Positions 25,492 through 45,621 of a stretch of 64,000 bases of DNA are shown one piece after another. Each line of letters opens with the position of its first letter. Positions within the stretch are counted from its first letter, which is position 1. The notes below the pieces were generated by a model. It searched no databases, was not told where the DNA came from, and saw nothing but the letters and a program-made list of their open reading frames with translations. The DNA comes from a virus. Position numbers and translations under genes: made by a program. The stretch lies in the IMG/VR virus record IMGVR_UViG_3300045988_144650; one strand, given 5' to 3'.

Positions 25492-26700
25492 CTACCTCTC
25501 TTCTTCGCCGGCTTTGAAATTATAGATCGGCTTAATAACCGAAATAATCTTTGCCGTCGGCTCAATATTGTCGACAATGTCTTCCATATTCTTGTATGCC
25601 ATAGGGCACTCATCAAGAGTGCTTTGACCTACAGATGTCGTATAAATTCCACTCATCTGCTTTTTGAACTCAGAAACTGTAAATGTCTGCTTTGCCGCAC
25701 TTCTGCTCATCAATCGACCTGCTCCATGAGGTGCAGAATAGTTCCAATCTTCATTACCCTTACCAATACAGATTAGACTTCCATCTCTCATGTTGATCGG
25801 GATCAGAAGTTTTTCTTCGTTCTGTGCAGAAACAGCTCCCTTTCGCAGAATCATATTATCCAAATCAATATAGTTATGAATTGTTGTAAATTGTTCAACA
25901 ACATGGAACCCCATGTTCTTTACAATAATATCCATCATAGCTTGCCTATTTAATTCGGCAAACTGCTGTGCAATTTGCATATCGTGCAAATATTGCTCGA
26001 ACAACTCACCCTCTACATAGGCTAATGCTTTAGGGATGGATGACTGCTTAGTCTTCATCTGTTTCAAAACGGTTTGAATTTCCTTTTGGCGACCGTCTTT
26101 TTTTAATCTCTGGACAACCTCATCAATTTCATCTTTACTGTATGAGGTTAATGATTTATAAGCAGCATCCTGATAATAATTAGCTATTTCCAACCCAAGA
26201 TGTCTGCTTCCAGAATGGACGACAATATAAATATTTCCATCATCGTCTTTATTTGCTTCAATAAAATGATTACCACCACCGAGTGTTCCGATGCTGTTAT
26301 AGGCGCGATCGGTATTAACTTTGTCTGCACAAAACAGTTTTGACAAATCGATACGATCAGAAAACTTATGTGGTCTCTTATGAATTTCAAACCCAGATGG
26401 AATACTTGATCGAATTACCTTGTCCAACTTTTGTGGTTCAATATGTGTCTCTTTCAGCCGGATGGTTTCCATTCCGCATCCAATATCAACCCCTACAAGA
26501 TTGGGGCATATCTTGTCCTTGATAGTCATTGTGGTTCCAATTGTACACCCTGCACCAGCATGAATGTCGGGCATCATTCGAACTCTGCTTCCCTCCATAT
26601 AGGGTTGATTCAGCAAATTTATCACCTGAGAGATAGATTCGTTGTCGACCACATCAGTAAATACTTTTGCAATGCCGTATTTTCCGCTCAACTCAAACAT
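25492..26700 (-). CDS. rtcB: RtcB-family RNA ligase (3'-phosphate/5'-OH).
   Basis: DIHAGAGCTIG, GGGNHF and HGAGR motifs. Confidence 0.85.
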   Translation of the reverse strand: MFELSGKYGIAKVFTDVVDNESISQVINLLNQPYMEGSRVRMMPDIHAGAGCTIGTTMTIKDKICPNLVGVDIGCGMETIRLKETHIEPQKLDKVIRSSIPSGFEIHKRPHKFSDRIDLSKLFCADKVNTDRAYNSIGTLGGGNHFIEANKDDDGNIYIVVHSGSRHLGLEIANYYQDAAYKSLTSYSKDEIDEVVQRLKKDGRQKEIQTVLKQMKTKQSSIPKALAYVEGELFEQYLHDMQIAQQFAELNRQAMMDIIVKNMGFHVVEQFTTIHNYIDLDNMILRKGAVSAQNEEKLLIPINMRDGSLICIGKGNEDWNYSAPHGAGRLMSRSAAKQTFTVSEFKKQMSGIYTTSVGQSTLDECPMAYKNMEDIVDNIEPTAKIISVIKPIYNFKAGEEER

Positions 26701-28482: not shown

Positions 28483-28569
28483 TGGTACGGATAGTGGGAC
28501 TTGAACCCACACATCATTGCTGACATTAGCACCTGAAGCTAACGCGTCTGCCAATTCCGCCATATCCGC
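28483..28569 (-). tRNA. tRNA-Leu (anticodon CAG), type II, CCA encoded.
   Basis: Manual fold: acceptor GCGGATA, anticodon loop TTCAGGT, long variable arm, T-arm GTGGG-TTCAAGT-CCCAC, 3' ACCA. Confidence 0.7.
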
Positions 28570-28742
28570 ATATTTCTTTGGTCGGCTTCCCGCTTAGATT
28601 GTCACATCGTCTACTTGGGAGTAAAGGTCTCGTTCGCAAACAACCGTGTATACCCGATTGCTCCGCAGTTTTCAGCGGACATTTTCATTCTCTGTGTGGT
28701 AAGCCGATAATCGCACACATCATCTGGGAGCTACCCAGCCAC

Positions 28743-28833
28743 TGGCGGAGCAGATAGGACTTGAACCTACACACCCTTTCGGGCTACTCACGGTTTAGCA
28801 AACCGCTGCCTTACCAATTAGGCTTACTGCTCC
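28743..28833 (-). tRNA. tRNA-Ser (anticodon GCU), type II.
   Basis: Acceptor GGAGCAG, anticodon loop TTGCTAA, long variable arm, T-loop TTCAAGT, 3' GCCA. Confidence 0.7.
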
Positions 28834-28837
28834 ATAT

Positions 28838-28913
28838 TGGAGCTGGTGGACGGATTCGAACCCCCGACCTACTGATTACAAATCAGTTGCTCTACCGACT
28901 GAGCTACACCAGC
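28838..28913 (-). tRNA. tRNA-Thr (anticodon UGU).
   Basis: Canonical D-arm AGCTCAGTCGGTAGAGC, anticodon loop TTTGTAA, T-arm GGGGG-TTCGAAT-CCGTC, 3' TCCA. Confidence 0.8.
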
Positions 28914-29527
28914 ATCTCTTTATAGGGTTTTTCGCGCTTCTGCAGATTTCCACGCCTTGTCCTTACCGTCTATCCCTATTGCCACATGGGATCACAGACC
29001 CTAAACACTTCTGCTCTATGCCGGTTGTGTTCTGATACCGGAAAACATTCTGGGGACTTTATTTCACCTTGTTGCTCCAGCCCTCAAGGGTAACTCGGCA
29101 AGTGGCTTGCCTATTTGGATTTTGGTGCCATCATCTCAGCCATACACTCCGGCCTAAACCTAAGTTTGCCAGAACCTCACCGATTGCTCCTATGTATGCC
29201 GTCCTCGCCTCTGACTGAAATGATGTGCCGACACCTTCCATACCGTCTCACTTGCAAAATAAAACAAACTACGAACGGGGTGTGGTAAGCACATACCACC
29301 CAAACCTCTGCTTAGTCCCGCCGGTTCTGGTTTACGACATGGTTTGGTGCTCATGCCCTTGAGCTATTAGGCTATTTAACTATCTCTCACCGGCTTGATT
29401 TGCTTTTGTTAAGACGGTGCCAGAGCACGCTGCTCATATCCCGTTATCTTCCGCCCATCGTAGTCGATGACCCAGCCACTATATATCATTTCAAGTGGGC
29501 TTTTCCCATACCGTCTAAAGCGTATGG

Positions 29528-29637
29528 CTGGTGGAGAGGGATGGATTCGAACCACCGAAGCTTAATTGACCACACGGCGCCACAAGTCAAAAAGCGGAGA
29601 TTTACAGTCCCCGACTTTGGCCACTTGTCTACCTCTC
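29528..29637 (-). tRNA. tRNA-Tyr-like (anticodon GUA), atypically long at 110 nt with a ~39-nt variable arm.
   Basis: Acceptor GGAGAGG/CCTCTCC, anticodon stem-loop GGGGA-CTGTAAA-TCTCC, T-arm GGTGG-TTCGAAT-CCATC, 3' ACCA. The variable region GCTTTTTGACTTGTGGCGCCGTGTGGTCAATTAAGCTTC forms an extended hairpin. Confidence 0.55.
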
Positions 29638-29655
29638 CATATTGGTAAACTGGTC

Positions 29656-30468
29656 TTATTCCCAGTTTGTCGTAACACGACCATCTGGATGAATAATAAT
29701 ATTGGAATACCCATCCTGATAATCATTATGTTGCTGTTGCCACATATCTCCGAGTGTTACCCTGGCGTGCTTGCCAGCATAATCAAAAGTTGCATACACA
29801 AAGAAGTCGCCAATACGAAATGTGTGAAGATCAACTTCGTGATCGTTTTGTAATTCATTCCAAATATCTACCGAGTAGTCTTTTCGTTCAAGGCCACTAA
29901 GAAACCGAAAAGAAAAGGCATCTGCATCCATCTTCATGTAATCTTTAATGAATGCCAATGTTGGGGTTTCAACCACTGTTTGGACTGTACACCCAGGAAA
30001 CTTACTTGGATTTGGATGAATAAACTCGTTACAGGACAGATTGATATGTGCCAAACCATTTAATTCTGTGCTGAAACCAGAAGTATTTATTGAGCAAAAG
30101 ACACCGTTGCTGTAACTCTGATATGTTTCAACGATTTTTGCAATGTGTTTTGGATATAGACCGGGTTCTCCGCCAGTGATAGTAAGCCTTCCATTCGGAT
30201 GTTCTTTTAACACACGCTTTAGCGCCTCAACCTGGAGCGGAAAATTATTGTTGCCGGACATTGGGTGCTGCCTTTCCAAGCAAAACGGACAGCTAAACGG
30301 ACATTCCTGTGTGGTAATCAGTTGGATATTGATTCGATAGTAAAGAGGCCGACCAAGTGATGTTTTGATTAACCTGTCTCTTAGCCTATATTGCAGATCA
30401 TTATTCATTTCATTCCTTATTTCGTCGTAAGAACCAATGAACGGAATGAAGTTCAACTTGCTACTCAT
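29656..30468 (-). CDS. Radical SAM enzyme, second copy, small.
   Basis: CPFSCPFC is a Cx3Cx2C cluster. ITGGEPGLYP SAM-binding motif present. Confidence 0.7.
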   Translation of the reverse strand: MSSKLNFIPFIGSYDEIRNEMNNDLQYRLRDRLIKTSLGRPLYYRINIQLITTQECPFSCPFCLERQHPMSGNNNFPLQVEALKRVLKEHPNGRLTITGGEPGLYPKHIAKIVETYQSYSNGVFCSINTSGFSTELNGLAHINLSCNEFIHPNPSKFPGCTVQTVVETPTLAFIKDYMKMDADAFSFRFLSGLERKDYSVDIWNELQNDHEVDLHTFRIGDFFVYATFDYAGKHARVTLGDMWQQQHNDYQDGYSNIIIHPDGRVTTNWE

Positions 30469-30493
30469 CTAAATCAACCTCCTTTGCTGTTAG

Positions 30494-30569
30494 TGGTGGA
30501 GATGGTCGGGATCGAACCGGCGACCTCCTGCTTGCAAGGCAGGCGCTCTCCCAACTGAGCTACATCCCC
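30494..30569 (-). tRNA. tRNA-Ala (anticodon UGC).
   Basis: GGGGATGTAGCTCAGTTGGGAGAGC..., G3:U70 pair, anticodon loop CTTGCAA, T-arm with TTCGATC, 3' ACCA. Confidence 0.8.
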
Positions 30570-31226: not shown

Positions 31227-32720
31227 TTAGTGCTTGTCAGCAATCGCGCCGCCCAGCATACCGGACAGCACGGCCATCAGATCCAGGCCGGTTGCATCCT
31301 TGAAACCATCCTGAACCTGCTTCATGCCGGTGGTAACGGCGCCGGTCAGAGTGGAAGTACCACCCTCGTAGATGGTCATGTTGTCGATACCCTCCATAGG
31401 CTTAGCAACGGCAGCGGCAATCTCAGGCATGGTCTTGACATACTCCATTGCCACATCCAGAACCATCTGCTGCTTAGCAGCGTCGCCGTATTCCTTCATA
31501 GCTTCTGCCTTCTTCAGAATGCCTGCAGCCTCAGCCTCTGCCTTAGCCTGAATGGCCTCGGCTTCAGCACGACCCTTGGCAGCGATACCGGCAGCTTCGT
31601 TTTCCATTGCCACACGAGCAGCTTCGGAACGAGCCTTTTCAGCAGCAGCTCTCTGCTCTGCCTCAAACAGCTCTGCAGCAGCCTGCTTCTGACGCTCGAA
31701 CAGCTCAGCCTCAGAAGACTTCTGAACCTCATACAGCTTTGCATCAGCTTCCTGCTGTGCAGCGTACTTATCGGCCTCAGCCTTCTTCTTGATCTCTGCA
31801 TCCAAAGAACGCTCACGGATAGCAACCTCGCGCTCCTTCAGTTCGATTTCCTTTTCCAGACGAGCCAGGTTGGCTTCGGCTGTCTTGGTTTCGATGGATG
31901 CACGCTGCTCCTGCTCCTGAATTGCATAGGCAGCATCTGCTTCTGCTCGCTTGGCGTCCTCAATCTTCTTCAGCTCAGCCATCTGAATGGCAAGCTCGTT
32001 CTGACGCTTAGCAATCTCCTGATCGGACTTAACCTGAGCCTCGTTGGCAGCCATAGCAGCCTGAGCCTGAGCAATAGCAATCTCCTTCTCTGCCTGAGCC
32101 TTGGAAATTGCGGCGTCCTTGGAAATCTGAACAGTGTTCTCCAGACCGAGGTTGTCGATCACGCCGTTGCGATCCTTGAAGTTCTGAATGTTAAAGGTAG
32201 TCAGCTCCAGACCCATATCGTTCAGGTTGGGAGTAACATTCTCAATGATACGCTCGGCAAAAATCTTCTTGTCACCCTGGATCAGTTCCTTCAGAGTGGT
32301 CTGAGAAATAATCTCACGAATATTACCCTCCAGAACAGGAGTAATGATTTCGCGAATCTGATTGGGATTATAGCCAAGGAATTTAGAGGCTGCGACCTTC
32401 AGCATATCAGGATCTTTAGCGATGGACACATTGGCTACTGCGTCAACCATAATGTTGATAGCATCCTTGGTGGGGATCTCATCGCGAGAAGTGAAGTCAG
32501 ACTGAATGTTTTCCAGAGACATATAGTCGACACGCTGGATGATAGGAATAACCAGTGCGCCCTGACCGATAATTGTTCTTGCACCACGGGGGCCGGTGAT
32601 GACCATTGCCACATTGGGAGGTGCTTTCTTATACATAACCTTGCCAATGAAGATCAGAAGAATGATTGCGACAAGGATGCCGACACCGGCGGTTGCGTAA
32701 GGCAAAATCATTTCGAGCAT
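31227..32720 (-). CDS. Flotillin-like SPFH-domain protein (FloT/YuaG-like).
   Basis: N-terminal transmembrane anchor, an SPFH region, then a long Ala/Glu/Gln/Lys-rich coiled coil (EA repeats) and a C-terminal flotillin tail. Confidence 0.75.
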   Translation of the reverse strand: MLEMILPYATAGVGILVAIILLIFIGKVMYKKAPPNVAMVITGPRGARTIIGQGALVIPIIQRVDYMSLENIQSDFTSRDEIPTKDAINIMVDAVANVSIAKDPDMLKVAASKFLGYNPNQIREIITPVLEGNIREIISQTTLKELIQGDKKIFAERIIENVTPNLNDMGLELTTFNIQNFKDRNGVIDNLGLENTVQISKDAAISKAQAEKEIAIAQAQAAMAANEAQVKSDQEIAKRQNELAIQMAELKKIEDAKRAEADAAYAIQEQEQRASIETKTAEANLARLEKEIELKEREVAIRERSLDAEIKKKAEADKYAAQQEADAKLYEVQKSSEAELFERQKQAAAELFEAEQRAAAEKARSEAARVAMENEAAGIAAKGRAEAEAIQAKAEAEAAGILKKAEAMKEYGDAAKQQMVLDVAMEYVKTMPEIAAAVAKPMEGIDNMTIYEGGTSTLTGAVTTGMKQVQDGFKDATGLDLMAVLSGMLGGAIADKH

Positions 32721-33863: not shown

Positions 33864-33889
33864 CCGTTCACCCCTTTCCTTTTCGTTTC

Positions 33890-34218
33890 ATCTGTAATCT
33901 ACAAGTACACCCGTCTTCTTGAGGAAGCTCTGGAGGGACTCCTCGTCGAGAGCTGAGGCTTCGTGAAGCGTGAGTTCGGGATTTCGCATCGGGTCGGTGA
34001 GCGAGAAAACCCTTGTAGTTACAGGGGTTTTCGAGTGTTTCCGAGTGAGGAAAATTTATTTATTTCCTGACCCTGCGAGCAGTGTCATCTCTTGCGCCGG
34101 GCGAATTCGCTGGAGGCGCCTGCCGCAGCGGCGTGCCCCTGGTATTTCCCCCCGGCCATTCGTAACTCCGATTTACAATACGGAGCATTAACTGAAACAG
34201 TTAATAATGCATTACAGA
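33890..34218 (-). ncRNA. Family-1 structured element, long copy B (about 329 nt, retron-ncRNA-like architecture).
   Basis: Minus-strand a1 ATCTGTAAT immediately followed by G, then the conserved CATTA-SL1-TGC-SL2(CTCCG-TATTGTAAAT-CGGAG)-TTACGAATGG module, a variable GC-rich ~230-nt body, and a2 ATTACAGAT 27 nt upstream of the next gene start. Confidence 0.45.
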
Positions 34219-34820: not shown

Positions 34821-35157
34821 CTTTGTAATCATTACATATATATCCTGATTCCCTTCAGTGCGATCATCGATGGGATGCCAATCCCAGTTCTGTCGTCATC
34901 TGATGTGATTTGGACTTCTTGCAGTTGGGAAACCACCTAATTCCGAGGTCTTAGTTGGTGTTTTGCACGGAATTATTTATTTAGTCTTGGTTCAACCGCC
35001 GGAGACTGGGTGCCTCTTGAGGTGTTAACGCGTTGACGGCCGGCGGAGCTGCGGGCGTCACCAGTGGTGGGCTATGTGTTTCCTCCCGACCATTCGTTAC
35101 TTTGATTGACAATACAAAGTGCTACTTGCCAAAGACAAACAGCTATGCATTACAAAG
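34821..35157 (-). ncRNA. Family-1 structured element, long copy C (about 337 nt).
   Basis: a1 CTTTGTAAT-G and a2 ATTACAAAG carry compensatory changes relative to copies A and B. SL2 is CTTTG-TATTGTCAAT-CAAAG. The conserved TAACGAATGG block is present. Confidence 0.45.
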
Positions 35158-35361: not shown

Positions 35362-36050
35362 TATCCGTTGTCAACCTCCTCGGCAAAGAAAGTTTCGTTC
35401 ATATATGCCAGAACACGGTCGGCATATCCACTCGTGCCCGGGCTACCAGTGTTATAGCAGGTAAGGGCAGACTCGACTGACCCGTACTTTTCTATCAATT
35501 CGGCAAGCAAATCGCATCCGACTCTGAAGTTTGAAAGAGGATCGGAAAGGTCTGTCACACCAAGCCGCTCCATTCTTTCCTGGTGCCAACGAGGCTGAAC
35601 CTGCATATACCCGATGCTGTTTCCATTGTCGCCATTTACATTCCTGTATGTGGACTCACGGAAAATAACCGCCAAAGCAAGCTCATAAGGGCAGCCTGTT
35701 TCTTCACAAGCTGCCCATACAAGTTCCTGCAATTCATATTCAAGGGAAATATTTTCGTAGTATCGAAATGTCTCTTCCGGTTCCGGTTCTGGGGTGGGCT
35801 CTGAAACTAACATGGTTTCGCGTGGAATATACACCGGTGGAACAACCATCGGTTCAAGTTTTAATGGAATAGTTTCGTATGTATCGCTGATAGCAGGAGT
35901 TGGGATTTCCGGCTCAGCATCTGCAGCCGGATTTGAAAGGCCACATAAAACCACGGTTACGAATGCCAGAAAAAGCAGCATTGCGATGATATGCGGAAAC
36001 CGTCTGTGAGAACGGCGCCGTCTTCGTCTTTTCTGATACAAGGGTAACAC
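35361..36050 (-). CDS. Lytic transglycosylase (SLT domain) with an N-terminal membrane anchor.
   Basis: ELALAVIFRESTYR...GYMQV matches the catalytic E-S and GLMQ-like motifs of the SLT domain. A hydrophobic helix lies near the N-terminus. Confidence 0.75.
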   Translation of the reverse strand: MLPLYQKRRRRRRSHRRFPHIIAMLLFLAFVTVVLCGLSNPAADAEPEIPTPAISDTYETIPLKLEPMVVPPVYIPRETMLVSEPTPEPEPEETFRYYENISLEYELQELVWAACEETGCPYELALAVIFRESTYRNVNGDNGNSIGYMQVQPRWHQERMERLGVTDLSDPLSNFRVGCDLLAELIEKYGSVESALTCYNTGSPGTSGYADRVLAYMNETFFAEEVDNG

Positions 36051-36075
36051 TCCTCTCTTGTGACCGATGCTGAAA

Positions 36076-37221
36076 CTACTGGTTGAGATCCTCGCTCATG
36101 CTTTTCATAACATCGGTGTGGAACTTCTCATTGTTGTACTTGATTACGCTATCTACATACTCTTTTTCGACCATGCTGTAATAGTTGACCAAACCACGCA
36201 GAACCTGTACATCGTGCAGATCCCAATGGCGACCATTCTGCCGGTCGAGAATGTAGTTGCAAATCATTGCCCGCAAGCGCTGTTTGTTCTTATAACCAAT
36301 GGTGATCTCATTATCCTTATTGAGCATCACACCGAGGTTCCAATTACTTCCAGCGCGTGAGCCATAGCGCGTCTTTTCGTCTTTGATCTTAAAAGGAGCA
36401 CCAAACTCTGCGAGGGTAGAATTGATAAAGCCGATGATTTCATCCTTATCAAAACCCTTACGGCTTGAAAAGAGAGAGTCATCGGCATATCTGGTATATA
36501 CATAATGATTTCCATTGAAGTCACGCAGGCAATTGTTGATACGATGGTCAATGGGAATCATCATCAGATTTGTGAGCATAGGGGAAATAGGTGTTCCCTG
36601 CGGGAGACCACCGTTCAGGAAACACAGATCCAACGCTTTTTCCAAAGCATCAAATCCGCGCTGAGATTTTACGATCTCGCTAAATGGAAATACTTTGGAA
36701 AGCATAGACATCAGGAACTTCGGAGTTGTGCTGCCAAAGAAGTCAGAGAAGTCGGTCTTGAGGAACCAATGACTCTCATTCTTCTGATGACGCTTTACCG
36801 CGTCGATGGTAGATCTTCCGGGAACATAAGCAAATGCGCTGGTATGATACAGCGCAAACATCTGGGTTTCAAAAATCGTTTTCAGATTTCTGAGCGCATT
36901 CATCAGCGCTGGCTGCGGCGCATTGATCTCACGCAAGCCACCGGACTTCTTAGGGATATAGAACTTATCGTAGAGGTCGCTGCGCTTTGCCTCGTAAAGT
37001 TTAGCGTTCTGCTTGCAAAACTCTTCCAAGGTTACGACCATTGCATCAATATCAAAACGCTCAAGGAACTTGGGGTTCAGAACTTTGGAAAAGTAAGTTC
37101 TTGTGTTGGTCTCATTGGGGTTGACCATGTTGGCGAGATTGACATTCCCCGAAATAATTTCATCAAATGTGATCTGATGGAAAATCGGAGACTGCATCAG
37201 CGTAATGTAAGGCACTTCCAA
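36076..37221 (-). CDS. Reverse transcriptase, retron-type.
   Basis: RT motifs: IPKKSGGLREINAP (1/2), AYVPGRS, FLKTDFSDFFGS (A), GLPQGTPISPMLTNL (B'), YTRYADD (C), and a downstream KT....NLGVML resembling the retron VTG region. Start follows AAAGGAGG. Confidence 0.75.
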   Translation of the reverse strand: MEVPYITLMQSPIFHQITFDEIISGNVNLANMVNPNETNTRTYFSKVLNPKFLERFDIDAMVVTLEEFCKQNAKLYEAKRSDLYDKFYIPKKSGGLREINAPQPALMNALRNLKTIFETQMFALYHTSAFAYVPGRSTIDAVKRHQKNESHWFLKTDFSDFFGSTTPKFLMSMLSKVFPFSEIVKSQRGFDALEKALDLCFLNGGLPQGTPISPMLTNLMMIPIDHRINNCLRDFNGNHYVYTRYADDSLFSSRKGFDKDEIIGFINSTLAEFGAPFKIKDEKTRYGSRAGSNWNLGVMLNKDNEITIGYKNKQRLRAMICNYILDRQNGRHWDLHDVQVLRGLVNYYSMVEKEYVDSVIKYNNEKFHTDVMKSMSEDLNQ

Positions 37222-37242
37222 ACCTCCTTTTTCATTATTCGT

Positions 37243-37569
37243 ATCTGTAATCTACATACTCTGTGATGAGATGACCAGATCAGCTCAGGATACTCGTAGA
37301 TCTTCAGATTCCTGGATTCGGACATCTGATGGCTATGAAGTAACGGTGAACTCCTGGTTGTGCAGGTAATGAGTCTTGGATTTCCTGTGGTTCCTTAAAG
37401 TTTTCTTCAGGAGACACTGATGAAACTCTTGACTTTTGCTGTATAACCTGCGATGCTGCGACCGAGTCGCTGCAGCGTTTCTGGGTAGCCGGGTATTTCC
37501 CGTCCACCATTCGTAACTTTGATTTACAATACAAAGCACTTCCTATTCGGGAAGTAATGCATTACAGAT
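37243..37569 (-). ncRNA. Family-1 structured element, long copy A (about 327 nt), directly 5' of the RT gene. Candidate retron msr-msd ncRNA.
   Basis: a1 ATCTGTAAT-G at the 5' end (minus strand). SL1 is CTTCC-CGAATA-GGAAG and SL2 is CTTTG-TATTGTAAAT-CAAAG, followed by TTACGAATGG. a2 ATTACAGAT lies 22 nt upstream of the RT start. Confidence 0.5.
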
Positions 37570-37574
37570 CTCGT

Positions 37575-38456
37575 TTACATCTTTTTCAGAATCGCAAAGA
37601 ACTCCTCTTCATCAATCTCGATGATCTCCTGTGGAGCACTGAGAACCTCATAGTACCCATCGCCGTCAGGCTCATCTGAGATTAGGATTTCAGGATTGAG
37701 TTTCAAAGCTGGGCGCACCCCCACACAATCGTCGCAAGCACAGGCACTGCCGACATCGCCATCGCGATTAACGCAACGCACATTGTACGAGCGGCCAGAG
37801 TTCGGGGAGCGCAGGTAGTAGTACCACTCCTCGTCTTCATATTCGGGCTTGTCATTATTGGGAGTATTTGCGTACAGTTCGGGAGAGAACAGGCAGGCTC
37901 TGTTTGCACCATCCGCAAACAAATCCCAAACCTCACCCTCCTGAATACGGTTCTCAGTTCCACCGCCCACATTGGTTCTGGAGGGCATGAAAACCTTAGC
38001 ATAAATGGTTTCATACTTTTCGCCACCAGTAGGAATATCCTTGGTAGGCAGCGCCGTTTTGATCTCGGACTCCTCAATGGCTTCGACTTCCCACTCCTCA
38101 AAGTAGTGCAGGAAACCAGGCTTGTGAACATAGCCGTAGCGACCATTGTACATCAGGCGATCCTCGGGAGCCGTGTCGTGTTCGTGTGTCGGGCGGAACC
38201 AGTCTGTCCCCTCAGCATTCAGAAACTGATGACTGTTACTTAAGGAGTAGCGGTTATTACCGTAACTCCTGCGGTATTCGTCGGGGTTATCGGGCTCTTT
38301 GGCATCGAACGCACACTGATCTTCCATAAACTCGGTCAAGATCGTGCCGTCGCGATGAGCCTTTACCCAGCAAATCTTATGCGGCATCTCACCGCTGACG
38401 CTATAAGCGCCGAATTTCAGTTTTGCCCCGATGGGCAGGTCTGCGATAGTAGGCAT
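37575..38456 (-). CDS. Hypothetical protein.
   Basis: 293-aa ORF with a Cys cluster CACDDC near the C-terminus. Confidence 0.45.
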   Translation of the reverse strand: MPTIADLPIGAKLKFGAYSVSGEMPHKICWVKAHRDGTILTEFMEDQCAFDAKEPDNPDEYRRSYGNNRYSLSNSHQFLNAEGTDWFRPTHEHDTAPEDRLMYNGRYGYVHKPGFLHYFEEWEVEAIEESEIKTALPTKDIPTGGEKYETIYAKVFMPSRTNVGGGTENRIQEGEVWDLFADGANRACLFSPELYANTPNNDKPEYEDEEWYYYLRSPNSGRSYNVRCVNRDGDVGSACACDDCVGVRPALKLNPEILISDEPDGDGYYEVLSAPQEIIEIDEEEFFAILKKM

Positions 38457-38480
38457 AACCGCTACTCCTTTCGTATTTAT

Positions 38481-39158
38481 TTAGAACGCATCAACCGTGT
38501 GACCAAAAGCGTCGATCAAGATCAGCTTACGCAGATCGCCGCCCTTGACAAAATTGATGAAGTTGGAGACTCCGCAAGCAACAATCATTCTGACTGTCGG
38601 AACCACGGACAGAGTGACATTGCAGGCAGAAACAGGGGTCTCTTCCTTAGCCTCCTCGTGAGAGAATGCCATGCTCTTGATGAAATCCTCAACCATCTTC
38701 TGGTTGTCCCAAGCCGCAGCATAGTGCTGGGCATCAGTCAGTCTCATACGGAAGTCAAACATTCCCTTGACATACTGATTTTCCTTGCACTTGGTGGCAA
38801 TCTCACGGCGGAGGTCGATATTATCCACGCAGAGGAAAACATAACCGGAAAGCCGCTGACCTGTCCAACCATCGGGAACCAACTTAAGCTCCTCCGCGCA
38901 ATCGGGATTGATCTCACACAGGTAATCAGCAAGCGCCTCGATCTTCAGCTTGCCGATGTCGGTCTGACGGAACATCTGGTTTGCGATGTTGTGCGCCTCA
39001 ACCTTGTCGAAATCGTAAAGAGTGATTTTGGTGATACCGAACCGAACCAGATTTTCTGCGACGGTCGATCCGATTGCACCGCAGCCGATGATATGCACAC
39101 GAGAAGTCAGCATATCAGGCTTGAAAAAGTCATAAGACTTGGACAAATCCATAGCCAT
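38481..39158 (-). CDS. E1-like ThiF/MoeB-family adenylyltransferase.
   Basis: Rossmann loop IIGCGAIGSTVAENL followed by ITLYDFDKVEAHNIANQ (compare GxGxxG ... D.D.V..SNLNRQ). Confidence 0.65.
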   Translation of the reverse strand: MAMDLSKSYDFFKPDMLTSRVHIIGCGAIGSTVAENLVRFGITKITLYDFDKVEAHNIANQMFRQTDIGKLKIEALADYLCEINPDCAEELKLVPDGWTGQRLSGYVFLCVDNIDLRREIATKCKENQYVKGMFDFRMRLTDAQHYAAAWDNQKMVEDFIKSMAFSHEEAKEETPVSACNVTLSVVPTVRMIVACGVSNFINFVKGGDLRKLILIDAFGHTVDAF

Positions 39159-39179
39159 TTGGTCAGTCTCCCTTCTTAT

Positions 39180-40082
39180 TTATTTCTGAAAGCGACCGTA
39201 ATCGTAGATGCCGTACTGATCGTCGTCATCGTCATAGCCGCCGTAGTTATATCCTTTGCCGGAACTTCCGATATCGGGCTTATCCTTCTTGCCGCCCTTG
39301 GGCTTGCTCTTGGTCTTATCGGAACCGGTCTGAGCCTGGAAACCCGTCTGCTGCTTGCCATACTGGTAACCACTCTGACCGTACTGGCCTCCGCCGTACT
39401 GATAGGTCTTGGTCTTGACCAGTTCCTTGGCATCCTTGATAAAGGCGTTCAGGTCACAACCCTCATCGCCGATATACAGGTCAACATCTGCGGTTTCGTA
39501 GAGCGTATTGTTTGCCATATCGAAAATCTTGATGTTGCGCTCGAACTTCTTGTTCCAAATCATAAAGATGTAGAACATATCGTCGTCGATCTGGCTCAGG
39601 ATCTTTTCCTGATGGGTGGTATCCACACCGGAGGGGGTCGTGCTGAAATCTACATGAGAATGACCCTGCATACGGATGTTGTTAAACACCTCATCATCGT
39701 GGGTGTAGAGCCAAGTCTGATACGCATCCTGGTCGGTGTTAACGGTAGAACCGGTAACAACCTGGGGATAAACCAGAATGTCAGTGATGTAGAACTTATT
39801 CTTTTCCTTTTCGTCGCGATATGCGACACCGTGCCAAGCGACCTCGCTGGTAAAGTTCTGAACCAACATGGTCATCTTGGCAAATGCGACGGCGGAGAAC
39901 ACAACAGAAGCCCTGTCCTCACCATCCCATTTGAAGTTCTTGGTGTAATTGAGCTTACCGTCGAACATCTTCATCTTTTTGACATTCTCGATAAACTCCT
40001 GCTGAATCGCAGCAATCAGCTCGTCGGTGAGCTTGATCGGCTTACTCATGTGCTTCCTCCTTTTTCTTTTGCTTTTCCGCAT
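39180..40082 (-). CDS. JAB/MPN (JAMM) metalloprotease-domain protein with a Gly/Tyr/Gln-rich disordered tail.
   Basis: GHSHVDFSTTPSGVD matches HxHx7Sx2D with an upstream Glu. The C-terminal 90 aa are low complexity (YQYGGGQYGQSGYQYG...). Confidence 0.6.
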   Translation of the reverse strand: MRKSKRKRRKHMSKPIKLTDELIAAIQQEFIENVKKMKMFDGKLNYTKNFKWDGEDRASVVFSAVAFAKMTMLVQNFTSEVAWHGVAYRDEKEKNKFYITDILVYPQVVTGSTVNTDQDAYQTWLYTHDDEVFNNIRMQGHSHVDFSTTPSGVDTTHQEKILSQIDDDMFYIFMIWNKKFERNIKIFDMANNTLYETADVDLYIGDEGCDLNAFIKDAKELVKTKTYQYGGGQYGQSGYQYGKQQTGFQAQTGSDKTKSKPKGGKKDKPDIGSSGKGYNYGGYDDDDDQYGIYDYGRFQK

Positions 40083-41559
40083 CCTGTGCCTCCAACCACT
40101 TCACTGCATCCAGAGGCGTTGCGGTAGAGCCGTCAGGCATCTGGATAATCTTACCCACATCGTTTGCACAAATCTTCTGCATAAAGAAAGTGCCAGTGTT
40201 GGCTTCGGTCAAATTGATATTGGTTGCGGAACCACAGCAGTTGCTCACTGCCGCGACATAGTCGCGGTTCATCATTGCTTTTCGGATATAGGTCTGATTA
40301 TTACCCAAGCAAGCATAATACTGGATATGCTGGTTGGGGGTATGATCCACAAGAATTTCAGGCGGGAACGAGTAGTTCTTCAGACCGTAATAACCGCCAT
40401 CAGAGAAGTTCAGTTTGTATGCCGCGCAGACACGAAGCTTCATAATTTCATCTCTGAAAATCGCAATCATCAAGCGCTTGATACGCTCGTCGGTCATTTC
40501 CTTGTTCTGGTAACGCTGACCGGTCTGATAGTGACGATAGAAGAAGCTACGGCCAAACTGCTCAATAGCGGACTCGAACAGCTCAGGGTCGAAACTGGAA
40601 ATCGTAGTGGTTACGATAAACTCAATCGTACCACCACTGACACGAACAAGATTGATGGACTTATTGCAGAGCATATACTCCATAAACTCGGTATCTTCGC
40701 CATCATCACCGTCGCCGCGCATTTTCGCAATCAAACCCAGTTCCTGTGTGGTCAGATCAGCAATCCGCACATACAGGTCGCGGAACTGCTGTTCCAACTG
40801 TTCAATGCGATTACGGTCGTTGGCAATCTGCTGCTGAACATTCCGAAGTTTGTCCTTCTCAAAGGCATTCTCAAAACCACGGAGCATATTGCGAACCGCC
40901 TGCGTTCTGAAATCAAACTTCTTAGCGAATTGTTCAATCAGCTCGGTATAATCAGGAGCATAACGCTTGGTGAGGGATCGGATCAGTGCAACCTCTTCGT
41001 CATTGAAGGGGTTTTCACGCACATACCAAGGCATATAGCGGGGAATCAGAGACTGCAACAGATGCCATCTCTTGATATCCAGCTTTTCAACGAAAATCAG
41101 AACGGACTTACGCTCCTCGCTGATAAACACACGGGCATGAACCTTGCCGTTCTGTTCCAGAAACTTAGATACATCGGGCAGAGCGATAAAAGCATTGCCC
41201 AGTGCGGCATTTACACCGCCATTGTCGATAGCAGCGAAGCTTGCGGTGTTGCCCTCTTCGTCACCATCAAAAGTGTGAATATGCAGAGCACCGGGAACTG
41301 CAGACATAATATCGGTATTTCTCAGGAATGCACGGACGCAATCCTTAGCAGTTGCTCCGTCAATTTCATACTTACCATAACGAGAGGCAGTAACGCGAAG
41401 CAAAATGGACTCTTCTTTCGGAACCCTTTTGTACATAAGGGCTCGCAAGGTCGCCAGAAAAGAGGTATCGCCTCTAAAGTCCTGCCCATTGATGTTTTGG
41501 AACAGACCATCGGCGACCTGTTTGGTGAGAGTCAGACCAGAAAGAGTTTTGTTAAACAT
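40042..41559 (-). CDS. Hypothetical protein, 505 aa.
   Basis: Large ORF with a central coiled-coil-like region, co-directional with and upstream of the JAB and E1-like genes. Confidence 0.45.
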   Translation of the reverse strand: MFNKTLSGLTLTKQVADGLFQNINGQDFRGDTSFLATLRALMYKRVPKEESILLRVTASRYGKYEIDGATAKDCVRAFLRNTDIMSAVPGALHIHTFDGDEEGNTASFAAIDNGGVNAALGNAFIALPDVSKFLEQNGKVHARVFISEERKSVLIFVEKLDIKRWHLLQSLIPRYMPWYVRENPFNDEEVALIRSLTKRYAPDYTELIEQFAKKFDFRTQAVRNMLRGFENAFEKDKLRNVQQQIANDRNRIEQLEQQFRDLYVRIADLTTQELGLIAKMRGDGDDGEDTEFMEYMLCNKSINLVRVSGGTIEFIVTTTISSFDPELFESAIEQFGRSFFYRHYQTGQRYQNKEMTDERIKRLMIAIFRDEIMKLRVCAAYKLNFSDGGYYGLKNYSFPPEILVDHTPNQHIQYYACLGNNQTYIRKAMMNRDYVAAVSNCCGSATNINLTEANTGTFFMQKICANDVGKIIQMPDGSTATPLDAVKWLEAQDAEKQKKKEEAHE

Positions 41560-41629
41560 AGCCTGCTCCTTTACTCAATGATTAAGGGCACCCACCGTAT
41601 TTCAGATGGGTGCCCCAGCCGATATGTAA

Positions 41630-41872
41630 TTAGGCGTTGTCAGCCTTAACGACATTGAGCAGGAAGCACTTGTCGTGACCCTCAGTGCCGTCGTAGCCGA
41701 AGTCGGCAAAAGTCTTGTTCAGGTCGCCGGGGCCGAGAGTGGAACCATCCAGAGTGGTCATGCCGGAGGTGTAGTCGATGCCGGCCTGCTCCATAGCAGC
41801 ACGCAGGGTGGTATCAGGGGTATAGTTCTCAGAGGAACGCTTCAGGTTGTTACCAATAGTGACACGGATCAT
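41630..41872 (-). CDS. Small protein, 80 aa.
   Basis: ORF MIRVTIGNN... Its size and position make it a ubiquitin-like (beta-grasp) candidate. Confidence 0.35.
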   Translation of the reverse strand: MIRVTIGNNLKRSSENYTPDTTLRAAMEQAGIDYTSGMTTLDGSTLGPGDLNKTFADFGYDGTEGHDKCFLLNVVKADNA

Positions 41873-41968
41873 AATGATTTCTCCTTTTTATTCATCAGAT
41901 TTTGTTTGTGAAACTTGAATTTGGTTAGGAGCTGGGCGGTTTGCCCGCCCAACCCCAAGCTGCTTTAC

Positions 41969-42370
41969 TTAGCAGGCAACGGTGATGCACTCGCGAACCG
42001 CAGCCTTCTCAGCAGCGACAGCGTTGACGGCATCCTCGAACTGAGCCTCGACCTGGTTCAGCATGGTGATAGCCTTACCGATCTTCTCGGCAGCGTAGTC
42101 GACCGCATTGGCGGTGCCGGCAGGGATGGGCATGGTGATGGAAGCCAGCTTCTGATCGTCGTGAGTGACGGAAGCGAACACCGCACCATTACCGTTGATG
42201 ACACCAGTGCTGCCGGAAGCGACACGGAAAACCTCGGACTTGTTGCCGTCCTCGTCGCGCTCGTACAGACGCAGTGCCTTGGGGCGATACTTCTCCAGAT
42301 CCTTGATTGCCTCCAGAGTCTTGCTGGAAGTGATGACGATGGAGTCGCCAGCGATAGTGATTTTTGCCAT
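41969..42370 (-). CDS. Hypothetical protein, 133 aa.
   Basis: ORF MAKITIAGDSIVITS..., strong RBS context. Confidence 0.4.
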   Translation of the reverse strand: MAKITIAGDSIVITSSKTLEAIKDLEKYRPKALRLYERDEDGNKSEVFRVASGSTGVINGNGAVFASVTHDDQKLASITMPIPAGTANAVDYAAEKIGKAITMLNQVEAQFEDAVNAVAAEKAAVRECITVAC

Positions 42371-42539
42371 AGTGAAATCTTCCTTTCTGTTCTGGGCTTT
42401 GCCCGATTTGAATTATGTATTCCGTTTGCTTGAACCTTGCGGTTCTCCCCGCCCTGAACTTGCAGAGAATGGTTATCTGCGGAAGTGGAACCATTCAGGA
42501 CATGAAAACCCCGCAACCTGTTGGCTACGGGGTGTGCTA

Positions 42540-44051: not shown

Positions 44052-44293
44052 ACACCTCCCTCATGTTGTCAGCGCTGAACTGAAACACACCGTTGAGGAA
44101 AACCTCAATGTGCTCACGAACCCATCTGATTTCGTACATAAGATTTCCTCCTTTTCCTCTTTGGTGAGATGGCTCTTTTTCTGCGTTGAAAATACAGAGA
44201 TTCTTTTTAAGGGTGACACCCCGAAAACCCGCATGAACACGGGCTTTTCTTTTTATTTTGCGACCGGAGTCGTCGCAAAACCGTTTCGGTCTG

Positions 44294-44345
44294 CTCTGCA
44301 TTTACACGGGCTTGCAACCGTTTTGGAAACCCAAAGCTGCATTAG
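44294..44345. repeat. Family-2 two-hairpin element, copy 1.
   Basis: CTCTGCATTTACACGG-GCTTGCAA-CCGT-TTTGG-AAAC-CCAAA-GCTGCATTAG. It is followed on the minus strand by TTGCGA-17-TAAAAA and a hairpin. Confidence 0.45.
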
Positions 44346-44426
44346 ACCAGGCGGGAAACCGCCTGACCGTAGAAAGGAAAGGAAGCCGAAAGCCAAAGCA
44401 TTCAGCAAAAGTCGCCATGTGGCGAT

Positions 44427-44514
44427 GGCGGAGAGGGTGGGATTCGAACCCACGGAGGTTTTACCCTCGCCGGTTTTCAAGACCGGTTCCTTAAACCAGC
44501 TCGAACACCTCTCC
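44427..44514 (-). tRNA. tRNA-Ser (anticodon UGA), type II.
   Basis: Acceptor GGAGAGG, anticodon stem-loop CCGGT-CTTGAAA-ACCGG, long variable arm, T-arm GTGGG-TTCGAAT-CCCAC, 3' GCCA. Confidence 0.7.
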
Positions 44515-45237: not shown

Positions 45238-45275
45238 CTGAACACCTCCTTTTCCTGTTAAATTCAAAACTTTCC

Positions 45276-45321
45276 ACTCTGCATTTCTCATGCGGGCTTG
45301 TGACCGCCATTGGCTGCATTA
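45276..45321. repeat. Family-2 element, copy 4 (short form).
   Basis: CTCTGCATTTCTCATGCGG-GCTTGTGA-CCGC-CATTGGCTGCATTAG. The hairpin-1 stem changed ACGG/CCGT to GCGG/CCGC (compensatory). TTGAAT follows 9 nt downstream on the minus strand. Confidence 0.4.
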
Positions 45322-45549
45322 GAAAACCCCTCTTGAGAACAGGTAAGCAGCCGATTCACAAGAGGGGAATTTCCCCCGCGTTCAGGTGTTAATGCGGGAT
45401 TGTTTAATCAATCATAAACTTTAATCATTTGGATAACACCTGCCCAAAGCAAGAGGTCAGCGCTAACCCCTCACTCTCCGCATTTCGGGAATCTTTTCGC
45501 ATACGGTACGCCGCGTCAAGGCTCGTCGCGGAAAACCCTGCCAGGGATG

Positions 45550-45621
45550 TGACATGAGCAAGACTCGAACTTGCGACACGCCGGTCATATCCGGTTGCTC
45601 TACCGACTGAGCTATCATGCC
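45550..45621 (-). tRNA. tRNA-like element or pseudo-tRNA, with no encoded CCA and a noncanonical anticodon arm.
   Basis: Canonical D-arm TAGCTCAGTCGGTAGAGC and T-arm GCAAG-TTCGAGT-CTTGC with acceptor GGCATGA/TCATGTC. The anticodon region CCGG-ATATGA-CCGG gives only a 4-bp stem and a 6-nt loop. Confidence 0.4.

What the first reader, a model, noticed from the sequence alone, without database searches (positions are those of the whole stretch)
38481..42370. E1-like adenylyltransferase and JAB/MPN protease in one operon with a 505-aa unknown protein and two small proteins: candidate phage ubiquitin-like or sulfur-carrier system
The minus-strand gene order is 133-aa, 80-aa, 505-aa, JAB (HSHx7Sx2D), E1-like (GCGAIGS...DFDKVEAHNIANQ). 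E1 plus JAB with small beta-grasp-sized partners is the signature of prokaryotic ubiquitin-like conjugation systems (Bil/Bub/6E, CBASS Cap2-Cap3) and of ThiS/MoaD sulfur relays.

All described examples are host defence or biosynthetic systems. Here the system sits in a phage. The JAB protein carries a prion-like Gly/Tyr/Gln tail. No E2 (HPN) motif was seen in the 505-aa protein. Neither small ORF ends in Gly-Gly, so any Ubl would need processing.

The phage cysteine desulfurase could feed this E1 if it is a sulfur-carrier system.
Basis: partly seen in the sequence, partly recalled or inferred. Interest (0 to 1): 0.75.

Follow-up and report, generated by a model that had tools for sequence, protein, structure and literature searches.

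The report
Phage ubiquitin-like conjugation cassette with RT
A large family of gut Clostridia phages carries its own ubiquitin-like tagging kit (tag, activating enzyme, probable conjugating enzyme, trimming protease) almost always next to a retron-like reverse transcriptase, whereas such kits have so far been described as bacterial anti-phage defences.

Summary
The five minus-strand genes are real and lie in a phage (terminase, portal, integrase in the window).

- The 225-aa protein is a minimal ThiF/E1 adenylation domain.
- The 289/300-aa protein keeps an invariant JAMM motif (E...HSHx7SxxD).
- The 80-aa protein models confidently as a beta-grasp. Its best PDB match is BilA, the Ubl of the bacterial Bil system.
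- Its tail (..VVKADNA) sits exactly at the C-terminus, or is followed by 1-4 variable residues, or is fused in frame to the 133-aa protein. That is the signature of a processed, C-terminally activated Ubl.

I compared 161 distinct loci, found by three independent seeds. The order p133-p80-p505-JAB-E1-RT holds, and 124 loci have all six genes, while the flanking genes vary. The RT is preceded by a ~350-nt element closed by covarying inverted repeats.

It fails the defining tests for Bil, Cap2/3, Bub, PRTRC and ThiS/MoaD membership, so it is a new variant. Targets and biological role are unknown. A sulfur-carrier role is unlikely.

The parts
42508..42533 (-). Intrinsic-terminator-like hairpin (11 bp stem, 7 GC pairs, then a T run) just upstream of p133. 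It marks the upstream boundary of the transcription unit.
41969..42370 (-). p133: first gene of the cassette, fold unknown. In about 9 of 112 distinct homologue sets it is fused in frame behind the Ubl (..VVKADNA|A(Y/V)IKI..). It is a candidate partner, adaptor or target of the Ubl.
   Evidence: No Pfam, PHROG, NCBIfam or PDB sequence match. No homology to p80 by hhalign.
41630..41872 (-). p80: ubiquitin-like beta-grasp protein with a floppy tail ending ..VVKADNA-COOH.
40042..41559 (-). p505: N-terminal alpha/beta domain (about residues 1-200), a long coiled-coil helix (229-282), and a C-terminal UBC/RWD-like domain (about 290-470). Invariant residues include N409, H411, C417, G419 and also C378. 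It is the probable E2-like conjugating enzyme with a built-in substrate or adaptor domain.
39180..40049 (-). JAB/MPN+ (JAMM) metalloprotease, active-site residues E68, H129, H131, S139, D142 in numbering from the MSKPIKL start. It carries a disordered G/Y/Q-, K- and D-rich C-terminal tail. The ORF as listed runs to 40082; the conserved start is at 40049 and overlaps the p505 stop by 8 nt.
38481..39158 (-). Minimal E1-like adenylyltransferase: a single ThiF-type adenylation domain of 225 aa. It has GCGxxGS, an invariant D112/R117 (CVDNIDLR) and an invariant Cys179 in TPVSAC. It has no CxxC zinc motif, no rhodanese domain and no separate Cys domain.
37575..38456 (-). p293: DUF6273 / 'Hoc-like' protein inserted between E1 and the RT. 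It is present in only a minority of related loci and is probably a passenger gene.
37222..37568 (-). Structured non-coding element upstream of the RT. It has a 5' arm ATCTGTAAT followed by a conserved G, two small covarying hairpins, a variable core of about 250 nt, and a 3' arm ATTACAGAT that ends about 25 nt before the RT start. It is a candidate retron-type ncRNA; a terminator/promoter cassette or TIR element is not excluded.
   Evidence: Fold z = -3.1. Alignment and compensatory changes. Terminal inverted repeats recur in many diverged loci. No Rfam match.
36076..37221 (-). Retron-like reverse transcriptase with a YADD active site. It lies adjacent to E1 in nearly all related loci.
   Evidence: Pfam RVT_1 1.3e-19. 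NCBIfam retron_St85_RT 2e-54, 184.7 bits, below the 235 cut-off. PADLOC RT_II-A 1e-48. No DGR TR/VR repeat. Linkage.

Best explanation
This is a phage-encoded ubiquitin-like protein conjugation cassette of the E1-E2-JAB-Ubl type. Its gene order is the same as BilA-B-C-D.

Proposed mechanism:
1. p80 is the modifier.
2. Where its gene ends beyond ..(N/G)A, or is fused to p133, the JAMM protease cuts after the terminal Ala/Gly to expose the carboxylate.
3. The minimal E1, probably a ThiF/MoeB-like homodimer, adenylates that C-terminus with ATP and probably takes it as a thioester on Cys179.
4. The modifier passes to Cys417 of the UBC/RWD-like domain of p505. The N-terminal alpha/beta domain and coiled coil of p505 would choose the substrate, since no E3 is encoded.
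5. The JAB can also reverse the conjugates.

p133 is a dedicated partner, either an adaptor or the primary target.

The cassette travels with a retron-like RT and its upstream structured element. I therefore place its role in virus-host or virus-virus conflict (prophage-borne immunity, or counter-defence by tagging host or rival-phage proteins) rather than in cofactor biosynthesis.

Shown here: the folds and motifs of E1, JAB and Ubl; the tail-processing pattern; the conservation and linkage.
Inferred: thioester chemistry, the E2 role of p505, the targets, the biological role, and any functional coupling to the RT.
For: - E1: ThiF 1.4e-26. The profile hits Uba1, Uba5, MoeB, MccB and Cap2. The best defence-library hits are Cap2-type E1-E2 proteins. 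Cys179 and the ATP/Mg motifs are invariant.
- Ubl tail: of 112 distinct homologues, 58 end exactly at NA, 25 at NA plus 1-4 aa, 14 at GA plus an extension, 2 at SA plus an extension, 2 at GG, and 9 are fused to p133 right after NA.
- A C-terminal Ala is an accepted substrate end for bacterial Cap2 E1s (PMC10097602).
- Cleavage of a Ubl fusion by the operon's own JAB has a precedent in Bub (PMC11601596).
- JAB: the JAMM motif is invariant, and Rpn11 is the sole PDB hit with the motif aligned.
- Operon structure: overlapping or tightly spaced genes with a terminator upstream.
- Conservation: 124 of 161 distinct loci have all six genes, and the rest are mostly cut by contig ends. All 76 RT-seeded loci with enough upstream DNA carry the cassette. 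Flanking genes are variable; the commonest flank family is in 39 of 83 loci.
Against: - The coiled coil plus alpha/beta domain may partly drive the kinetochore RWD hits.
- JAB sequence-profile support is marginal (E 1e-3 to 2e-2).
- The E1 lacks the IAD and mobile Cys domains of conjugating E1s such as BilD, and resembles sulfur-carrier E1s in size.
- No target, no E3, and no experimental data.
- The p133 fold was not obtained.
- Two loci with ample flank (L032, L085) lack the RT next to E1. Copies of the 'ncRNA' element also sit upstream of unrelated genes. Coupling to the RT could therefore be positional only.
Confidence: 0.7

Rival explanations
1. Sulfur-carrier relay. p80 is a ThiS/MoaD/TtuB-like carrier. 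The E1 adenylates it and it is thiocarboxylated with sulfur from the phage cysteine desulfurase, for tRNA thiolation or cofactor synthesis. The JAB only matures the carrier.
For: - The E1 is a minimal 225-aa ThiF-like domain, and the best NCBIfam hit is ThiF PRK08644 at 1e-21.
- The window encodes an Aminotran_5 cysteine desulfurase, a radical-SAM protein and many tRNA-related genes.
- JAB plus ThiS/MoaD sulfur-assimilation operons are known (PMC1779556).
Against: - E1 scores are far below the equivalog cut-offs: 77.5 against 159 for ThiF, 47.9 against 376 for MoeB.
- There is no rhodanese domain or CxxC motif.
- The tail is ..NA or ..GA, not GG.
- A 505-aa protein with an invariant Cys in a UBC/RWD-like domain is always present.
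- The desulfurase lies 28 kb away and is not part of the conserved block, and no ThiG, ThiH, MoaE or thiouridylase gene lies in the block.
Confidence: 0.07
2. E2-independent conjugation. The E1 alone activates and transfers p80, as in archaeal SAMP/UbaA or TtuB/TtuC. p505 is not an E2 but a scaffold, target or unrelated Cys/His enzyme.
For: - Sequence-based and Foldseek evidence for an E2 fold in p505 is absent.
- Minimal single-domain E1s can work without an E2 (established knowledge of SAMP/UbaA, not tested here).
Against: - An invariant Asn lies 8 residues before an invariant Cys, with a YxFP motif upstream as in E2s.
- p505 sits in the BilB position of the operon and is translationally coupled to the JAB.
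Confidence: 0.15
3. Virion-assembly chaperone system like lambda tail assembly proteins I/K (Ubl plus JAB). The Ubl is a cleaved assembly factor and is not conjugated.
For: - Phage Ubl plus JAB pairs are known in lambdoid and T1-like tail modules (PMC1779556).
- A DUF6273/'Hoc-like' gene lies next to E1 in some loci.
Against: - The cassette is not in the structural module. Terminase and portal are about 20 kb away on the other strand.
- There is no NlpC/P60 domain.
- An E1 is always present, which an assembly-only role does not need.
- p293 is absent from most loci.
Confidence: 0.05
4. The Ubl cascade is the effector arm of a retron-type system, so the RT, its ncRNA/msDNA and the cascade work as one unit. 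This is an extension of the best explanation, not exclusive of it. Its probability is conditional and is not additive with the figures for the other readings.
For: - Co-occurrence holds from seeds on both sides: the p505- and E1-seeded loci and the RT-seeded loci.
- 124 of 161 loci are complete.
- The RT is closest to retron RTs.
- The upstream element has a1/a2-like covarying inverted repeats and a conserved G after the 5' arm.
- Flanks vary while the block is fixed.
Against: - The RT score is below the retron family cut-off.
- By my reading of the sequence, the RT has NLG where canonical retron RTs have VTG.
- Element copies also precede unrelated genes.
- A terminator-like hairpin separates E1/p293 from the RT.
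- L032 and L085 lack the RT.
- All loci belong to one phage lineage, so synteny may be inherited rather than functional.
Confidence: 0.3

Closest known systems
Bil (bacterial ISG15-like) systems, BilA-D, in bacterial defence islands (probably one of the Iyer 2006 E1/E2/JAB operon types; I did not establish which)
   Same: - Four functions in the same gene order: Ubl, E2-like, JAB, E1.
- The p80 model's best structural match in the PDB is BilA, and BilB is among the matches of p505.
- Some Ubl genes carry short C-terminal overhangs that need trimming (for Bil; here).
- No E3.
   Different: - Encoded by a phage lineage, not a host island.
- The Ubl ends in Ala (..DNA), not the invariant Gly of BilA.
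- The E1 is a single 225-aa adenylation domain, not IAD-AAD-CYS.
- The 'E2' is 505 aa with an extra alpha/beta domain and a coiled coil, and has no sequence similarity to BilB.
- It has an extra p133 gene.
- It is linked to a reverse transcriptase.
Type II CBASS Cap2/Cap3 (and 6A-MBL)
   Same: - The E1 adenylation domain's best defence-library and NCBIfam defence hits are Cap2-type proteins.
- There is a JAB partner.
- Substrates with a C-terminal Gly or Ala are accepted.
   Different: - E2 and E1 are separate genes here.
- The substrate is a true beta-grasp Ubl, not a CD-NTase.
- There is no cyclase and no effector.
Bub / 6E systems
   Different: - Bub works through Ser/Tyr oxyesters and has BubE/DUF6527.
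- Here Cys is invariant in both E1 and p505, and no DUF6527 was found.
PRTRC cassettes of ICEs and plasmids (ThiF-related)
   Same: A small single-domain ThiF-like E1 (PRTRC_ThiF profile of 245 positions, match 7e-9) in a multi-gene mobile cassette. From memory, that cassette includes JAB-like and small Ubl-like proteins.
   Different: - The E1 scores 35.4 bits against a cut-off of 144.75.
- No other PRTRC family matched any cassette protein.
- No ParB homologue was detected among the 10 neighbourhood proteins scanned.
Retrons (RT + msr/msd ncRNA + effector), some carried by prophages
   Same: A retron-like RT with an upstream structured element closed by inverted repeats, and a fixed set of neighbouring protein genes.
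   Different: No described retron type uses an E1/E2/JAB/Ubl effector, according to my literature searches. The RT is below the family cut-off. msDNA is unproven.

Membership tests
Bil (BilABCD) | Beta-grasp Ubl (BilA) | tested here: met
Bil (BilABCD) | Invariant C-terminal Gly on the Ubl | tested here: not met
   The terminal residue is Ala in 108 of 112 distinct homologues (..NA..GA..SA). Only 2 end in GG. BilA Gly is fully conserved.
Bil (BilABCD) | [quoted passage not shown] | tested here: not met
   The E1 is 225 aa with one ThiF domain covering residues 16-204. The definition comes from PMC11601596.
Bil (BilABCD) | UBC-fold E2 with a catalytic Cys | tested here: inconclusive
Bil (BilABCD) | JAB/JAMM peptidase | tested here: met
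   Invariant E...HSHx7SxxD. Rpn11 alignment. PADLOC JAB 1.5e-3.
Type II CBASS Cap2/Cap3 | Fused E2-E1 protein acting on a CD-NTase encoded in the operon | tested here: not met
   The genes are separate. No nucleotidyltransferase was found in the block.
Bub / 6E | BubE (DUF6527) serine protease, and Ser/Tyr rather than Cys catalytic residues | tested here: not met
   No DUF6527 hit. Invariant Cys179 in E1 and Cys417 in p505. Whether these Cys are catalytic is not testable here.
PRTRC system | Proteins reach the NCBIfam PRTRC_A/B/C/E/F/ThiF cut-offs, and a ParB homologue is present | tested here: not met
   Only the E1 matched PRTRC_ThiF, at 35.4 bits against a cut-off of 144.75. There were no other PRTRC hits.
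ThiS/MoaD-ThiF/MoeB sulfur-carrier pair | E1 reaches the ThiF/MoeB equivalog score; the carrier ends in Gly-Gly; biosynthetic partners (ThiG/ThiH/MoaE) are in the neighbourhood | tested here: not met
   77.5 against 159 (ThiF) and 47.9 against 376 (MoeB). The tail is ..NA. No such partners were found in the block.
Lambda/T1 tail assembly TAPI-TAPK | Ubl next to a JAB+NlpC/P60 protein inside the tail gene module | tested here: not met
   No NlpC/P60 domain. The cassette is in a non-structural, leftward accessory block.
Retron | RT reaches a retron family cut-off | tested here: inconclusive
   retron_St85_RT 184.7 bits against a cut-off of 235. PADLOC RT_II-A 1.2e-48.
Retron | Adjacent ncRNA with a1/a2 inverted repeats and a priming G | tested here: inconclusive
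   A 9-13 bp terminal inverted repeat with compensatory changes and a conserved G after the 5' arm. The same element also precedes unrelated genes, and TIR or promoter-cassette readings are not excluded.
Retron | Production of msDNA | not testable with these tools
   Needs nucleic-acid extraction from infected or expressing cells.

The most novel reading that the evidence does not exclude
The cassette and the reverse transcriptase form a single system: a phage-borne, retron-like RT with its ncRNA or msDNA that controls, or is a substrate of, a ubiquitin-like conjugation cascade. For example, msDNA or RT status could gate E1/E2 activity, or the Ubl could be attached to the RT-DNA complex. That would be a new class of retron effector and the first virus-owned bacterial 'ubiquitination' pathway, fixed in a whole lineage of gut Clostridia phages.
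Probability: 0.3. Interest if true: 0.92.

Novelty: new variant of a known kind. Interest (0 to 1): 0.8.

Why it matters
Bacterial ubiquitin-like conjugation (CBASS Cap2/3, Bil, Bub) has so far been described as host immunity against phages. Here a complete set (Ubl, E1, probable E2, deubiquitinase-type protease) is a fixed feature of a large, uncultured group of temperate-looking gut phages.

Four of the five proteins lack any Pfam or PHROG family. The p505 C-terminal domain alone defines more than 2,000 50%-identity clusters.

If it is active, phages tag proteins with their own ubiquitin-like modifier, as eukaryotic viruses manipulate ubiquitin. That opens a testable case of viral use of this chemistry in bacteria.

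The system is also unusually compact. It has a 225-aa E1, a modifier ending in Ala, and natural Ubl-fusion precursors. This is useful for studying the minimal requirements of E1-E2 chemistry and possibly as a tagging tool.

The near-obligate neighbour, a retron-like RT with a structured RNA element, hints at a link between reverse transcription and protein conjugation that has not been described.

Tried and rejected
1. DGR reading of the RT. No template/variable repeat was found around 35900-38600. Rejected.
2. p80 and p133 as paralogues. MAFFT aligned their N-termini, but hhalign gave probability 0.65%. Rejected.
3. One structure job for both small proteins, using a p80+p133 concatenation that mimics the natural fusion. 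MAFFT misaligned the p133 rows twice, so I abandoned it. The p133 fold remains unknown.
4. Sequence-profile detection of an E2 in p505, with the whole protein and with the C-domain, against Pfam and PDB. Only coiled-coil noise came back.
5. Foldseek against the PDB for p505. Nothing significant. The afdb50 library was unavailable.
6. p80 and p133 profiles against PDB sequences. Nothing. Pfam on p80 family members gave only faint hits (DUF2604, TUG-UBL1, SLBB), at E >= 0.04.
7. Rfam on 35-46 kb. No family matched the RT-upstream element.
8. Is the cassette universal in the phage lineage? I seeded IMG/VR with the portal. The contigs were truncated relative to the expected position of the cassette, so the test was uninformative.
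The E1 alignment was used instead.
10. Six literature searches found no description of a phage-encoded E1-E2-JAB-Ubl cassette or of a retron with such an effector. The library excludes most subscription-journal papers.

Full report
**1. What is there**

On the minus strand, the window encodes the following in transcription order:
- p133, 41969-42370
- p80, 41630-41872
- p505, 40042-41559
- a JAB-like protein, 39180-40082
- an E1-like protein, 38481-39158
- a DUF6273 protein, p293, 37575-38456
- a 350-nt gap
- a reverse transcriptase, 36076-37221
- a lytic transglycosylase-like protein, by my reading of its sequence (not scanned against any library)

A strong terminator-like hairpin (42533-42508) precedes p133, and a weaker one follows p293. 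The conserved JAB start is MSKPIKL at 40049. It has a good ribosome-binding site, and its ATG overlaps the p505 stop by 8 nt (ATGAGTAA), which implies translational coupling. The long plus-strand ORFs over this region (590 and 540 aa) are shadows of the minus-strand genes.

The window is a phage. It has a terminase large subunit, a portal, an integrase, an exonuclease, RtcB and a CCA-adding enzyme, plus six tRNAs.

**2. E1 and JAB**

The 225-aa protein is a single ThiF-type adenylation domain (Pfam 1.4e-26, residues 16-204).
- It stays far below the curated cut-offs for ThiF, MoeB, TcdA and PRTRC_ThiF.
- In the defence library it matches the E1 part of Cap2-type E1-E2 proteins best.
- A family profile hits Uba1, Uba5, UBA6, MoeB, TcdA, MccB, Cap2 and ThiF in the PDB.
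- Invariant positions include the Gly-rich loop, D49/D51, N57/N60/Q61, K72, D112, R117 and Cys179 in TPVSAC.
- There is no CxxC motif, no rhodanese domain and no separate Cys domain.
- Placing Cys179 at the ThiF/MoeB crossover-loop position is my inference from motif order, not a computed alignment.

The JAB has no Pfam hit of its own. However, E...HSHx7SxxD is invariant in 19 homologues with 36-73% identity. Every weak profile hit points the same way: PADLOC JAB 1.5e-3, Rpn11 as the only PDB family at E 0.018 with the active-site residues aligned, and Prok-JAB 0.013. Its C-terminal third is a compositionally conserved but sequence-variable G/Y/Q-, K- and D-rich tail.

**3. The small protein is a Ubl**

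The tail is the most telling feature. VVKADNA is invariant in close homologues and is followed by 0-6 unconserved residues. Over 112 distinct sequences from all loci:
- 58 stop exactly after NA
- 25 have NA plus 1-4 residues
- 14 have GA, always with an extension
- 2 have SA plus an extension
- 2 end in GG
- 9 are fused in frame to p133 immediately after NA, as ..VVKADNA|A(Y/V)IKI..

A small residue fixed at the exact C-terminus, or buried behind disposable sequence, is what is expected of a modifier activated at its carboxylate and matured by a peptidase.

Two published precedents make the details plausible. Cap2 substrates end in Gly or Ala, and Ala-ended ones are conjugated (PMC10097602). 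Bub Ubl-E2 fusion precursors are cut by the operon's JAB domain (PMC11601596).

**4. The 505-aa protein**

The family has no Pfam, PHROG or NCBIfam model. The AlphaFold model is confident (pLDDT 91; pTM 0.51, consistent with mobile domains). It shows:
- an N-terminal alpha/beta domain
- a 54-residue helix (229-282)
- a C-terminal alpha+beta domain whose element order (helix, two strands, an insertion, two strands, loop, short helix, three helices) fits a UBC/RWD fold

Invariant residues across 45 sequences down to 29% identity include C378, N409, H411, C417 and G419. The local motif is Y-x-F-P...(T/M)PNxHIxxYxC(L/I)G. Even so, its only alignment put YSFPP on YPFKPP, PN on HPN, and C417 on the catalytic Cys.

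Against this, Foldseek found nothing significant and no E2, and no sequence-profile search found an E2. I therefore treat 'E2-like conjugating enzyme' as probable (about two in three), not as shown.

The C-domain family is large: 2,117 50%-identity clusters at E<=1e-3, nearly all about 480-505 aa long.

**5. Conservation and linkage**

| Seed | Collection | Loci returned | Result |
|---|---|---|---|
| p505 | IMG/VR, plus one GenBank record | 25 + 1 | all keep p133-p80-p505-JAB-E1-(p293)-RT |
| E1 | one genome per species | 80 | all MAGs, mostly gut Oscillospiraceae, Lachnospiraceae, Acutalibacteraceae and Christensenellaceae; contigs typically 90-140 kb, some up to 359 kb; same order |
| RT | IMG/VR | best 80 of 321 | all 76 loci with enough upstream DNA have the full cassette |

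The larger MAG contigs are compatible with prophages. Pooled, 161 distinct loci give 124 with all six genes. Most of the remainder are cut by contig ends. L032 and L085 have ample flank but no RT.

Flanking genes are much less stable. The commonest flank family is in 39 of 83 loci. p293 is present in a minority. Insertions occur between p80 and p505 and between JAB and E1 without changing the order. The block therefore behaves as a selected unit inside a plastic accessory region.

Caveat: all loci belong to one phage lineage, so inherited synteny contributes. I could not measure how many lineage members lack the cassette.

**6. The RT and its upstream element**

The RT is retron-like: NCBIfam retron_St85_RT 2e-54 but below cut-off, and PADLOC RT_II-A 1e-48. 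No DGR repeats are present.

Most loci have a gap of about 300-350 nt before the RT. The window's gap folds better than shuffles (z -3.1).

nhmmer shows that the element is repeated. The window has three copies on the minus strand: 37568-37222 before the RT, 34218-33870, and a partial copy at 35156-35046. Relatives also have several copies.

An alignment of seven copies shows:
- a 5' arm ATCTGTAAT followed by a conserved G
- two short hairpins with compensatory changes
- a variable core
- a 3' arm ATTACAGAT

The terminal stem keeps pairing through double changes. In many diverged loci the best long-range stem in the 460 nt before the RT again has a ..CTGTAA(T/C) core with different but complementary outer bases. 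It spans about 300-350 nt and ends about 20-30 nt before the RT start. Mean stem length is 8.7 against 7.4 in shuffles, and 59 of 143 unique regions carry the core.

This layout resembles retron a1/a2 repeats around msr-msd. A terminator-promoter cassette or a TIR-bounded element would also explain the conserved ends, and copies upstream of unrelated genes argue for caution. Rfam has no match.

**7. Mechanism and role**

The most economical reading is a Ubl conjugation cascade, as set out in the best explanation. The steps are JAB maturation of p80, adenylation by a dimeric minimal E1 (and probably a thioester on Cys179), transfer to Cys417 of p505, substrate choice by the extra domains of p505, and reversal by the JAB.

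p133 is always first in the operon and is sometimes made as a p80-p133 precursor. It is either a cofactor or the primary target. Mature p133 would start with Ala both after Met removal and after JAB cleavage of the fusion. N-terminal conjugation of p80 to p133 would recreate the fusion product. This is speculation.

The biological role is inferred from three facts. All characterised relatives act in phage-host conflict. The neighbour is a retron-like RT. The surrounding block holds tRNA-repair genes typical of counter-defence. I cannot tell prophage-borne immunity from counter-defence.

**8. Comparison and novelty**

It works like Bil. It fails Bil membership on the Gly terminus and the E1 architecture, and it also fails the Cap2/3, Bub, PRTRC, ThiS/MoaD and lambda TAPI/K tests (see the membership table).

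Six literature searches found no description of a phage-encoded E1-E2-JAB-Ubl cassette or of a retron-type RT tied to one. The library is incomplete, so this is absence of evidence only.

I rate it a new variant of a known kind, with a roughly 30% chance that the RT coupling makes it something more unusual.

Noticed in passing
window 44288-44348 (-) and 45271-45325 (-): Two twister-P1 ribozyme-like matches (55.8 and 48.3 bits; E 1.4e-10 and 1.9e-8; below the gathering score of 67.2). Each lies close to a tRNA gene: tRNA-Ser at 44426-44514, and an odd tRNA at 45549-45621 for which ARAGORN reports a two-base anticodon 'at'.
   Followed up: no
window 33870-34218 (-) and 35046-35156 (-); also L002, L003, L004, L027, L031: Extra copies of the roughly 350-nt inverted-repeat-bounded element found upstream of the RT. 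They sit in other intergenic gaps of the same leftward gene block, with conserved ends and a variable core. They could be additional RT templates, mobile promoter/terminator cassettes that help shuffle accessory genes, or TIR elements.
   Followed up: partly
window 14519-16886 (-), 25492-26700 (-), tRNAs at 28483-30569 (-): An RNA-repair set is encoded alongside a tRNA cluster: a CCA-adding enzyme, an RlaP-family nucleotidyltransferase and an RtcB ligase. This suggests counter-measures against host anticodon nucleases.
   Followed up: no
window 8938-10080 (-) and 29656-30468 (-): A class-V aminotransferase/cysteine desulfurase (Aminotran_5, 1.3e-83) and a radical-SAM protein. Both lie far from the Ubl cassette and outside its conserved block.
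   Followed up: partly
window 31227-32720 (-): A 497-aa SPFH/Band-7 plus flotillin-domain protein encoded by the phage.
   Followed up: no
window 37575-38456 (-): A DUF6273 protein (PHROG 'Hoc-like head decoration', 3.7e-50) wedged between E1 and the RT. It is present in only some related loci, so it looks like a passenger gene inside the cassette.
   Followed up: partly
window 57758-58798 (+) and 3601-4554 (-): Two tyrosine-recombinase-type genes (an integrase, and a protein with an MrpR-like N-terminal core-binding domain). Some related loci lie on MAG contigs of 180-359 kb. Together this suggests a temperate lifestyle.
   Followed up: no
L032 10672-15500 and L085 6002-10500: Two related loci keep p133-p80-p505-JAB-E1 but have other accessory genes where the RT normally sits. 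One of these has a long STNTG(D/N)(C/R)S tandem repeat. These loci are natural 'RT-less' variants that could be used to test the coupling.
   Followed up: partly
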